From a virus (Duplodnaviria > Heunggongvirae > Uroviricota > Caudoviricetes), in the IMG/VR virus record IMGVR_UViG_2563366944_000006: 4,729 bases of DNA. The stretch is one strand, 5' to 3'. Both the position numbers and the translations under genes were made by a program. Shown here piece by piece: positions 3,133-3,429 of the stretch (position 1 is the stretch's first letter; each line of letters opens with the position of its first letter). The notes below the pieces were generated by a model. The model was not told where the DNA came from and made no database searches. It saw only the letters and a program-made list of their open reading frames with translations.

Positions 3133-3429
3133 ATGGATATCACGCCGATACTTCATGCAATTTGTGCTGTGGCGGTACAGGGGCTGGTTGGGTGCATTAC
3201 CGGTGACTGGGCTTATGGTGCAGCCATTGCCTGTACGTTTTTTGTTGCCCGCGAATATACCCAGGCAGAATATCGCTGGATTAAGCGTTTTGGTGATGGT
3301 CACCGACATAAGATGCCGTGGTGGGGCGGTTTTGATCCGCACGCGTGGGATGTGGCAAGCCTGATGGATTTTGTGGTGCCGGTGGTGGCCTGTGCGGGAT
3401 TGTATGGCTGTATGCTGATTTTTAGCTGA
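3133..3429 (+). CDS. Hypothetical small membrane protein (two predicted hydrophobic segments), last gene of the stf transcription unit
   Basis: 98-aa ORF with ATG at 3133 preceded by AAGGGGAG (3122-3129). Hydrophobic stretches ILHAICAVAVQGLVGCITGDWAYGAAIACTFFVA and LMDFVVPVVACAGLYGCMLIF flank a polar, His/Trp-rich loop (KRFGDGHRHKMPWWGGFDPHAWD). Followed directly by the hairpin at 3436-3455. Family not recognised. Confidence 0.6.
   Translation: MDITPILHAICAVAVQGLVGCITGDWAYGAAIACTFFVAREYTQAEYRWIKRFGDGHRHKMPWWGGFDPHAWDVASLMDFVVPVVACAGLYGCMLIFS

What the first reader, a model, noticed from the sequence alone, without database searches (positions are those of the whole stretch)
3133..3429. Small two-segment membrane protein with a His/Trp-rich loop, co-transcribed with the tail fibre
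Two hydrophobic helices flank a loop rich in His, Trp and Gly (GDGHRHKMPWWGGFDPHAWD). Membrane proteins encoded next to receptor-binding genes often mediate superinfection exclusion. The His-rich loop might alternatively bind a metal. Function cannot be assigned from sequence.
Basis: inference. Interest (0 to 1): 0.55.

Follow-up and report, generated by a model that had tools for sequence, protein, structure and literature searches.

The report
Tail-fibre-linked small phage membrane protein
This is a real, strongly conserved 98-residue inner-membrane protein of a large family nobody has studied, which many kinds of phage carry just after their receptor-binding gene; it most likely changes the host envelope to block other phages, but that is untested.

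Summary
The ORF at 3133-3429 (+) is real. It has a good ribosome-binding site, sits 9 nt after the preceding gene, and shows dN/dS of about 0.12. It lies in a lambdoid E. coli prophage, last in the string lom / side tail fibre / 92-aa ORF / this gene.

It belongs to phrog_1443 (function unknown). It has no Pfam, NCBIfam, PADLOC, PDB-sequence or fold match. The family is large: 461 clusters at 50% identity. About 38% of complete E. coli genomes carry it, with up to 8 copies each, and so does classical phage 21.

AlphaFold (pLDDT 93.5) gives three helices, not two. The positive-inside rule puts the loop in the cytoplasm.

What is conserved is H8, R40, E41, Q44-A45-E46, R58, W72, D79 and P83. The loop histidines are not conserved, so the metal-binding idea fails.

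The gene follows unrelated receptor-binding genes in lambda-like, P22-like, epsilon15-like, diversity-generating-retroelement (DGR)-bearing and other phages. In the epsilon15-like and P22-like phages it fills the slot that O-antigen conversion genes occupy in related phages.

It is not the holin. Homologues in Alphaproteobacteria are ordinary chromosomal genes.

Best reading (about 0.4): an accessory envelope-modifying or superinfection-exclusion protein that travels with receptor-binding genes and belongs to a new family. The mechanism is unknown.

The parts
3133..3429 (+). 98-aa membrane protein, member of phrog_1443 (identical to RefSeq WP_000355614.1, annotated 'hypothetical protein')
   Evidence: ORF. 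phrog_1443 at E 4e-44. Annotated as a CDS in NZ_OZ547117. dN/dS 0.12.
3124..3129 (+). Shine-Dalgarno GGGGAG, 3 nt before the ATG and directly after the TAA of the upstream ORF
   Evidence: Read from the sequence.
3142..3201 (+). Helix 1 (residues 4-23); carries near-invariant H8 and conserved Q16
   Evidence: AlphaFold2 helix 4-23. H8 in 70 of 71 and Q16 in 46 of 71 representatives.
3208..3249 (+). Hydrophobic part of helix 2 (residues 26-39), joined to helix 1 by a short acidic G-D/N turn
   Evidence: AlphaFold2 helix 26-53. The turn carries almost no K/R across the family.
3250..3357 (+). Conserved polar segment (residues 40-75): helix R40-E41-x-x-Q44-A45-E46-Y47-R48-W49-I50, then R58 and M-P-W-W-G-G-F, then W72. 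Probably cytoplasmic or interfacial.
   Evidence: Invariant and near-invariant columns. About 6 K+R per loop against 0.45 on the other side of the membrane. dN/dS 0.07.
3358..3423 (+). Helix 3 (residues 76-97) with conserved D79 and invariant P83; no charged C-terminal tail
   Evidence: AlphaFold2 helix 74-97. D79 in 63 of 71 and P83 in 71 of 71.
2845..3123 (+). 92-aa acidic ORF (phrog_1361, function unknown). Overlaps the tail-fibre stop and travels only with this type of fibre.
   Evidence: Found between fibre and target in phage 21, ev243 and PhiR41_1, and in 78 of 80 IMG/VR loci. Absent from distant loci.
785..2848 (+). Side tail fibre: phage_tail_N domain, Ala/Ser-rich stalk, and a C-terminal domain of the type found in gene-transfer-agent (GTA) head spike fibres
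   Evidence: PF08400 at E 4e-68. NF048003 at E 8e-20, residues 329-530. phrog_1419.
3436..3455 (.). GC-rich hairpin after the gene. Its T-run is on the minus strand, so it reads as the terminator of ykgJ; it may also stop + strand transcripts.
   Evidence: and the sequence.

Best explanation
The gene encodes a small inner-membrane protein, probably three helices with the N-terminus inside, the C-terminus outside and the conserved loop at the cytoplasmic face. It belongs to a large uncharacterised family that phages carry as an accessory gene attached to the 3' end of their receptor-binding gene, and it moves between phage types together with that end.

Its most likely job is to alter the host envelope from the inner membrane so that incoming phages are excluded. 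This could work by interfering with genome entry at the inner membrane, or by interfering with a lipid-linked step of surface-polysaccharide assembly. In either case the protein would act through a conserved polar site (H8, Q16, R40, E41, Q44, E46, R58, W72, D79) rather than through the loop histidines.

Shown here: the gene is real and under purifying selection; the family is large; the conserved residues are as listed; the linkage to receptor-binding genes holds; it shares a slot with conversion genes; it matches no known family.

Inferred: topology, expression timing, and the exclusion or conversion function itself.
For: Linkage to receptor-binding genes, always on the same strand:
- Lambda-like phages: side fibre, 92-aa ORF, target (window; phage 21; ev243). 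Of 80 IMG/VR loci, 43 have this order and 35 have a second tail-fibre gene inserted before the target.
- P22-like Gally: tailspike, target, integrase.
- P22-like vB_EcoP-611R6: tailspike, O-acetylase, fibre remnant, target, integrase.
- Epsilon15-like phiv142-3: tailspike, target, gp23 homologue, holin.
- Leclercia prophage: a 720-aa tailspike, then the target 19 nt later.
- Comamonas prophage: J, a 72-aa ORF, target.
- Pigmentiphaga prophage: the target gene of a diversity-generating retroelement (DGR), then the target, then bAvd and the reverse transcriptase.
- Metagenomic podovirus: a 328-aa fibre with the same C-terminal domain family as the window's fibre, overlapping the target.

Slot equivalence:
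- phiv142-3 and epsilon15 share gp23 at 93% identity and the tailspike N-terminal domain at 72%. Between these, epsilon15 has wzy-beta plus the alpha-polymerase inhibitor, and phiv142-3 has the target.
- In the P22-like phage epsilon34 the genes next to the tailspike gene are the gtrABC conversion genes (genes 19 and 20-22, PMC2629481).
- In Gally a terminator-like hairpin separates the tailspike from the target, as for a separately expressed moron.

Cassette mobility: vB_EcoP-611R6 carries 451 nt that are 96% identical to a lambdoid prophage. The patch covers the last 208 nt of a tail-fibre gene plus the target.

Membrane protein with a constrained site: pLDDT 93.5 with three helices; K+R bias; conserved residues; dN/dS 0.07 in the loop.

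Prevalence: 2045 of 5426 complete E. coli genomes, up to 8 copies each.

Precedents, from my own knowledge: small inner-membrane exclusion proteins include T4 Imm, P22 SieA (PMC10883804) and HK97 gp15. Small membrane inhibitors of O-antigen polymerase include D3 Iap and the epsilon15 inhibitor (PMC4815439).
Against: There is no experimental or homology evidence for exclusion. PADLOC, Pfam, NCBIfam and PHROG give no functional match.

In the window and in other lambdoid copies the gene is translationally packed into the late tail-fibre operon, with no promoter-like site upstream. It may therefore not be expressed from the prophage.

Its sequence is conserved regardless of which receptor-binding domain precedes it. 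Any receptor-specific mechanism is therefore unlikely.

It also occurs in apparently lytic Aeromonas phages.

In Alphaproteobacteria it is coupled to housekeeping genes such as ligA, cyclophilin and dCMP deaminase, with no phage genes nearby.

Being the last gene of a late operon could by itself explain part of the adjacency to receptor-binding genes.
Confidence: 0.4

Rival explanations
1. It is a general host-physiology membrane protein, such as a tiny enzyme, channel or regulator of a conserved inner-membrane process. Phages would have captured it from bacteria and carry it as a fitness moron unrelated to phage exclusion.
For: Chromosomal homologues in Alphaproteobacteria are tightly coupled to recN-ligA, cyclophilin, dCMP deaminase, pirin and DAHP synthase, with PrmA and cytochrome oxidase as neighbours. 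Polar residues in or near the membrane are invariant across alpha-, beta-, gamma- and deltaproteobacteria, which suggests a universal substrate or partner. In lambdoid phages the region after the fibre genes holds other fitness cargo: lom in the window, and sitABCD and ompT in relatives.
Against: This does not explain why, in phages, the gene is almost always glued to the 3' end of the receptor-binding gene, including positions inside structural clusters and inside a DGR cassette. No enzyme or transporter fold was found.
Confidence: 0.2
2. It is a lysis accessory protein (a second holin, an antiholin or a lysis-timing factor) expressed with the tail fibres at the end of the late operon.
For: It is a small protein with three helices, like class I holins. 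It lies next to lysis genes in phiv142-3 (target, gp23-like membrane protein, holin, endolysin). It lies near a holin in the metagenomic podovirus. In Comamonas and in Aeromonas phage 62AhydR11PP it lies near phrog_3108, whose sequence motif made me suspect a lysozyme-like protein, although no database match supports that. It has late-operon wiring in the window.
Against: There is no match to any holin family in Pfam or PHROGs. It has no charged C-terminal tail. Its long, highly conserved loop is unlike holins. Every examined phage with the gene has its own annotated holin elsewhere or next door. In lambda-like and P22-like phages it is far from the lysis cassette. Chromosomal homologues sit beside housekeeping genes.
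Confidence: 0.12
3. It is a morphogenetic helper for the receptor-binding protein, for example a membrane-located assembly, maturation or attachment factor, or a minor virion component.
For: It sits immediately after the receptor-binding gene, co-oriented and often overlapping it, in many architectures. This is the usual position of fibre chaperones.
Against: The same conserved protein follows structurally unrelated receptor-binding proteins: pectate-lyase tailspikes, a GTA-type fibre, J, and a DGR-diversified lectin-fold protein. A specific chaperone would not do that. In Gally a terminator-like hairpin separates it from the tailspike. An integral membrane location is unusual for fibre assembly, which takes place in the cytoplasm. 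Chromosomal homologues have no phage genes nearby.
Confidence: 0.1
4. The His/Trp-rich loop is a metal-binding site.
For: This allele has H57, H59 and H70 in a 20-residue stretch.
Against: None of the three is conserved. Across 71 representatives, H57 is K/L/R, H59 is A/S/E and H70 is R/K/E. Close E. coli alleles read GKRIN...PRVW. The only near-invariant histidine is H8, in helix 1.
Confidence: 0.03

Closest known systems
Small inner-membrane superinfection-exclusion proteins (T4 Imm, P22 SieA, HK97 gp15)
   Same: They are small phage-encoded integral inner-membrane proteins that are not needed for virion structure. HK97 gp15 lies among tail genes and has a host homologue; those two points come from my own knowledge. 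SieA is described in PMC10883804.
   Different: There is no sequence or profile similarity. Those proteins are not systematically attached to the receptor-binding gene. Exclusion has not been tested for this family.
Serotype-conversion membrane proteins next to tailspike genes (epsilon15 alpha-polymerase inhibitor with Wzy-beta, D3 Iap, GtrABC, Oac)
   Same: The genomic slot is identical. In the epsilon15-like phage phiv142-3 the gene replaces the epsilon15 wzy-beta/inhibitor pair between the tailspike and gp23. In P22-like Gally and vB_EcoP-611R6 it sits where the gtrABC or oac genes sit in related phages (PMC2629481). The epsilon15 inhibitor is also a tiny protein, 66 aa with two membrane segments. 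Iap is a small peptide that acts on the O-antigen polymerase machinery (PMC4815439).
   Different: It is not homologous to the epsilon15 inhibitor; BLASTP finds no alignment. It is co-oriented with the tailspike, whereas the epsilon15 genes are divergent. Its sequence is conserved across hosts with very different polysaccharides, and it also follows protein-binding-type receptor proteins. No effect on O antigen has been shown.
Cor (phi80/N15) and Llp (T5): receptor-blocking exclusion proteins encoded beside receptor-binding genes
   Same: An accessory gene is physically linked to the receptor-binding gene.
   Different: Those are outer-membrane lipoproteins that bind the outer-membrane receptor. 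This protein has no basic signal-peptide n-region. The lipobox-like IAGC occurs only in enterobacterial alleles and the Cys is not conserved. It has no sizeable periplasmic domain, so it cannot reach an outer-membrane receptor.
Class I holins (lambda S type, three membrane segments)
   Same: Size and probable three-helix membrane architecture. Some copies lie next to lysis cassettes.
   Different: No holin family match. No charged C-terminal tail. The loop is long and highly conserved. It coexists with a separate holin. In lambda-like and P22-like phages it is located away from the endolysin.

Membership tests
phrog_1443 (PHROG family of unknown function) | Significant full-length match to the family profile | tested here: met
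   E 4e-44, residues 1-91 aligned to profile positions 1-91 of 97.
Holins | Match to a described holin family (Pfam or PHROG lysis category) | tested here: not met
   No Pfam hit with E below 0.19 and none to a holin. The only PHROG hits are phrog_1443 and phrog_34165, both of unknown function.
Holins | Encoded in a lysis cassette next to the endolysin, and the only holin of the phage | tested here: not met
   In the window it lies after the tail fibre, with no endolysin nearby. phiv142-3 and epsilon15-type phages have a separate annotated holin.
Holins | Hydrophilic, highly charged C-terminal tail | tested here: not met
   The protein ends inside helix 3 (…CMLIFS). The family's mean C-tail is 2.4 residues with 0.38 K+R.
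Cor/Llp-type exclusion lipoproteins | Signal peptide with lipobox Cys, and outer-membrane or periplasmic exposure | tested here: not met
   The N-terminus MDITP has no basic n-region. Cys34 is replaced by A, S or V in most of the family. The phage 21 GenBank note reports a SignalP call, but that conflicts with the AlphaFold helical hairpin.
Inner-membrane superinfection-exclusion proteins (Imm, SieA, gp15) | Sequence relationship to a known exclusion protein | tested here: not met
   No PHROG, Pfam or PADLOC match.
Inner-membrane superinfection-exclusion proteins (Imm, SieA, gp15) | Expression reduces infection by blocking genome entry | not testable with these tools
   This needs plating, adsorption and DNA-entry assays.
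Phage serotype-conversion modules | Located in the variable slot next to the tailspike gene | tested here: met
   phiv142-3 compared with epsilon15. Gally and vB_EcoP-611R6, compared with the gtrABC position in epsilon34 (PMC2629481).
Phage serotype-conversion modules | Homology to GtrA/B/C, Oac, Wzy or the epsilon15 alpha-polymerase inhibitor | tested here: not met
   No Pfam or NCBIfam hit. BLASTP against the epsilon15 inhibitor gives no alignment.
Phage serotype-conversion modules | Changes the O-antigen or capsule structure of the lysogen | not testable with these tools
   This needs LPS gels or serotyping.
Known anti-phage defence systems (PADLOC-DB) | Match to a defence-protein model | tested here: not met
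   No families at E up to 1.

The most novel reading that the evidence does not exclude
The family is a previously unrecognised, very widespread class of accessory protein linked to receptor-binding genes. It would be a roughly 95-residue, three-helix inner-membrane protein whose invariant polar cluster in or near the membrane (H8, R40, E41, Q44, E46, R58, W72, D79) forms a minimal enzyme or channel. That site would act on a universal envelope intermediate, for example a polyprenyl-phosphate-linked precursor, or on a conserved inner-membrane machine. Phages would have taken the gene from a bacterial housekeeping gene and would use it, whatever receptor they bind, to make the infected or lysogenic cell refractory to further infection.
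Probability: 0.2. Interest if true: 0.7.

Novelty: new variant of a known kind. Interest (0 to 1): 0.5.

Why it matters
The gene is present in more than a third of complete E. coli genomes, often in several prophages at once, and in classical phage 21. Even so, it has no name, no domain assignment and no literature.

It moves as a cassette with the variable end of tail-fibre and tailspike genes, across siphoviruses, podoviruses and plasmid-prophages. If it modifies the envelope or blocks infection, it would be a common hidden determinant of phage host range and of resistance to phage therapy in E. coli and its relatives. Swapping receptor-binding modules between engineered phages would carry it along unnoticed.

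Its small size and sharply defined conserved site make it easy to test.

Tried and rejected
Searches that found nothing useful
- Pfam, NCBIfam and PADLOC scans of the protein gave nothing.
- A profile search of PDB sequences gave only a chance match at E about 1 to yeast Ard1.
- The AlphaFold database libraries were not available.
- Literature searches for the accessions, for 'ybl63' (a name UniProt gives some copies) and for a phage 21 genome description found nothing relevant. The epsilon15 genome paper could not be opened.

Ideas considered and rejected
- Lipoprotein. The IAGC motif looks like a lipobox, but the Cys is not conserved in the family and there is no basic n-region.
- Main holin. 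Rejected for the reasons in the membership table.
- Obligatory partner of the 92-aa ORF. That ORF accompanies only the GTA-type fibre in Escherichia and is absent from all distant loci.
- Strict co-occurrence with the window's type of fibre domain. It is found upstream in only 12 of 72 diverse loci.

Technical limits
- A search with the broad alignment A2 for related loci failed because it has no conserved 7-mer.
- My simple ORF calling in high-GC genomes is noisy. Neighbour assignments there were therefore checked with Pfam for a sample only.

Full report
**What the window is**

The 4729-nt window is the right end of a lambdoid prophage of E. coli. It is 99.5% identical to NZ_OZ547117, where it follows the lambda-type tail genes up to J. 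The gene order is:
- lom, 34-633;
- a terminator, 737-766;
- a side tail fibre, 785-2848;
- a 92-aa ORF, 2845-3123;
- the gene in question, 3133-3429;
- on the other strand, a YkgJ-family gene, 3548-3880;
- a VapA/VapB-family gene, 4066-4518;
- the end of an IS1, from 4660.

The fibre has the prophage tail-fibre N-domain (PF08400, E 4e-68). Its C-terminal domain is of the type found in the head spike fibres of gene transfer agents (GTAs) (NF048003, E 8e-20; phrog_1419).

**Checking the observation**

The ORF, its coordinates and the quoted loop (residues 54-73) are exactly as described. The gene has a GGGGAG ribosome-binding site and starts 9 nt after the stop of the 92-aa ORF. That ORF in turn overlaps the fibre stop codon. 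No + strand promoter-like site was found between 785 and 3133, and the only terminator-like hit there (3218-3236, inside the ORF) is weak and no more than chance would give. The layout is therefore that of one late transcription unit. This is an inference, not a measurement.

The gene is not a chance ORF:
- It matches phrog_1443 at E 4e-44.
- It has 88 close relatives.
- A profile search finds 461 clusters at 50% identity and more than 2300 at 90%, nearly all 90-110 residues long.
- Among E. coli-type copies, dN/dS has a median of 0.12, and 0.07 in the loop.
- By DNA similarity, 2045 of 5426 complete E. coli genomes carry it, with a median of 2 and up to 8 copies. All copies listed are annotated 'hypothetical protein'.
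- Classical phage 21 has it as CPT_21_24, 'putative membrane protein'.

**Anatomy**

AlphaFold2 with a 25-sequence alignment gives a confident model (mean pLDDT 93.5) with helices 4-23, 26-53 and 74-97. The N-terminal hydrophobic stretch is therefore a hairpin, and the protein probably has three membrane helices rather than two.

Across 71 representatives, I counted K+R residues per region:

| Region | Mean K+R |
|---|---|
| N-terminal tail | 0.3 |
| Turn between helices 1 and 2 | 0.07 |
| 36-residue loop | 6.0 |
| C-terminal tail | 0.4 |

By the positive-inside rule, the loop lies in the cytoplasm and the C-terminus is outside. The GenBank note for the phage 21 copy quotes TMHMM with two segments, N-in and C-in, plus a SignalP call. 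The topology therefore needs an experiment.

The conserved positions, out of 71 representatives, are H8 (70), R40 (70), E41 (71), Q44 (69), A45 (69), E46 (69), R48 (63), R58 (66), W72 (71), D79 (63) and P83 (71). Q16, G24, G29, Y47, I50, P62 and W63 are also common.

The three loop histidines of this allele are not conserved. H57 is mostly K/L/R, H59 mostly A/S/E and H70 mostly R/K/E. The metal-binding suggestion does not hold. What the family keeps is a polar cluster at one face of the membrane plus a Trp-rich M-P-W-W-G-G-F segment.

**Comparison with known families**

Nothing is known about this family:
- No Pfam hit apart from a noise-level PhoR match at E 0.19, and no NCBIfam or PADLOC hit.
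- No relative among PDB sequences.
- No significant Foldseek match in PDB or BFVD.
- The literature searches found nothing.

**Genomic context, the most informative evidence**

In phages the gene sits on the same strand as a receptor-binding gene and directly after it, whatever the type of that gene:
- Lambda-like phages have fibre, 92-aa ORF, target (window; phage 21; ev243; plasmid-prophage PhiR41_1).
- Of 80 IMG/VR loci, 43 have that order. In 35 another gene lies between the 92-aa ORF and the target. In the two examples examined that gene is a second tail fibre (phrog_4563 or phrog_3299/454).
- P22-like Gally has tailspike, target, integrase.
- P22-like vB_EcoP-611R6 has tailspike, O-acetylase, a fibre-gene remnant, target, integrase.
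- Epsilon15-like phiv142-3 has tailspike, target, membrane protein, holin, endolysin.
- A Leclercia prophage has a 720-aa tailspike, then the target 19 nt later.
- A Comamonas prophage has J, a 72-aa ORF, target.
- Pigmentiphaga and Comamonas nitrativorans prophages place it between the target gene of a diversity-generating retroelement (DGR), which has a lectin-type fold, and bAvd with the reverse transcriptase.
- A metagenomic podovirus has it overlapping a 328-aa fibre whose C-terminal domain is related to that of the window's fibre.
- In two Aeromonas phages it lies next to, though not directly after, a tailspike gene.

Two comparisons sharpen this picture:
- phiv142-3 and epsilon15 share gp23 at 93% identity and the tailspike N-terminal domain at 72%. 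Between these two landmarks epsilon15 carries its serotype-conversion genes, wzy-beta and the 66-aa alpha-polymerase inhibitor. phiv142-3 carries the target there instead. The two small proteins are not homologous.
- vB_EcoP-611R6 contains a 451-nt patch that is 96% identical to a lambdoid prophage of E. ruysiae. The patch consists of the last 208 nt of a tail-fibre gene plus the target. The gene therefore travels with the 3' end of receptor-binding genes between siphoviruses and podoviruses.

In Gally, a terminator-like hairpin and a weak promoter-like site lie between the tailspike and the target. In that lineage it looks like a separate unit, in the place where the related P22-like phage epsilon34 keeps gtrABC (PMC2629481).

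**Evidence pointing the other way**

- The protein is conserved regardless of the receptor-binding domain in front of it. It cannot be specific for one receptor.
- In the window it appears to be expressed late rather than from the prophage.
- In Alphaproteobacteria, mostly Sphingomonadales, homologues are ordinary chromosomal genes. They are often overlapped with, or a few nucleotides after, recN-ligA, cyclophilin or dCMP deaminase, with PrmA, cytochrome oxidase and the like nearby.
- Several copies are also close to lysis genes.

**Interpretation**

I rank the explanations as follows.

1. About 0.4: an accessory inner-membrane protein that is linked to receptor-binding genes and makes the cell refractory to phage. 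It would act either at genome entry or through a generic lipid-linked step of surface-polysaccharide assembly. This fits the slot it occupies, its mobility as a cassette and the precedents of small membrane exclusion and conversion proteins (PMC10883804, PMC4815439, PMC2629481).
2. About 0.2: a captured host membrane function carried as a fitness gene unrelated to exclusion.
3. About 0.12: a lysis accessory protein. It is not the holin. It matches no holin family, has no charged C-tail and coexists with separate holins.
4. About 0.1: a helper for fibre or spike assembly. This is unlikely because the same protein follows unrelated receptor-binding proteins.
5. About 0.03: metal binding by the His loop. 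The conservation pattern contradicts it.

The remaining probability is for something not considered here.

**Verdict**

The family is uncharacterised. Under the best reading it is a non-homologous new variant of a known kind of phage accessory function. Interest is moderate (0.5). The gene is common and easy to test, but at present it has only positional evidence for function.

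Noticed in passing
window 4066-4518 (+): A 150-aa protein matches the Rhodococcus equi virulence-associated protein family (PF05526, E 5e-34; RefSeq 'VapA/VapB family virulence-associated protein'). It sits in E. coli just beyond the prophage tail-fibre module.
   Followed up: no
window 3548-3880 (-) and 3436-3455: A YkgJ-family CxxCxxCC cysteine-cluster protein is encoded convergently with the target. The GC-rich hairpin between the two genes has its T-run on the minus strand, so it reads as the ykgJ terminator. The target has no clear terminator of its own.
   Followed up: partly
window 4660-4729: The last 70 nt are the end of an IS1 element. Most related genomes match the window only up to 4659, and the best match has IS1A here, followed by a disrupted yciE-family pseudogene and then yciF.
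   Followed up: partly
window 2845-3123 (+): A 92-aa acidic ORF (phrog_1361, no other match) overlaps the fibre stop codon. It accompanies only this GTA-type side fibre in Escherichia phages. It may be that fibre's assembly factor, in place of a canonical Tfa.
   Followed up: partly
L088 7001-7300, L119 and L121 (Pigmentiphaga humi, Comamonas nitrativorans): A family member sits inside a diversity-generating retroelement cassette, between the variable tail protein (phrog_2889, with a weak FGE-sulfatase/lectin-fold hit) and bAvd with the reverse transcriptase. L088 has two bAvd-RT pairs in tandem.
   Followed up: partly
L145, L150, L151, L158 (Alphaproteobacteria and a Burkholderiales genome): Family members lie directly after, or overlap the stop of, NAD-dependent DNA ligase ligA (recN-ligA-target in L145). 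Other members follow cyclophilin (L139) or dCMP deaminase (L152). These are chromosomal copies with no phage genes nearby.
   Followed up: partly
L005 4793-5243 (Escherichia phage vB_EcoP-611R6): This P22-like phage carries a 451-nt patch 96% identical to a lambdoid prophage of E. ruysiae (L093). The patch covers the last 208 nt of a tail-fibre gene plus the target, a visible scar of module exchange between a siphovirus and a podovirus.
   Followed up: yes
L087 7970-8521 and L003 2499-2996: phrog_3108 (unknown function; the sequence contains a QESRF...GFWQFE motif that made me suspect a lysozyme-like protein) occurs a few genes from the target in both a Comamonas prophage and Aeromonas phage 62AhydR11PP. 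In Comamonas, a 125-aa protein with several membrane segments lies between them.
   Followed up: no
L163 5365-8814 (phage 21) and L002 8372-9325 (phage ev243): Just beyond the target, related lambdoid phages carry very different cargo on the opposite strand: the sitABCD iron/manganese transporter in phage 21, and an OmpT protease, a methyltransferase and a hydrolase in ev243. The target marks the boundary of a highly variable cargo region.
   Followed up: no
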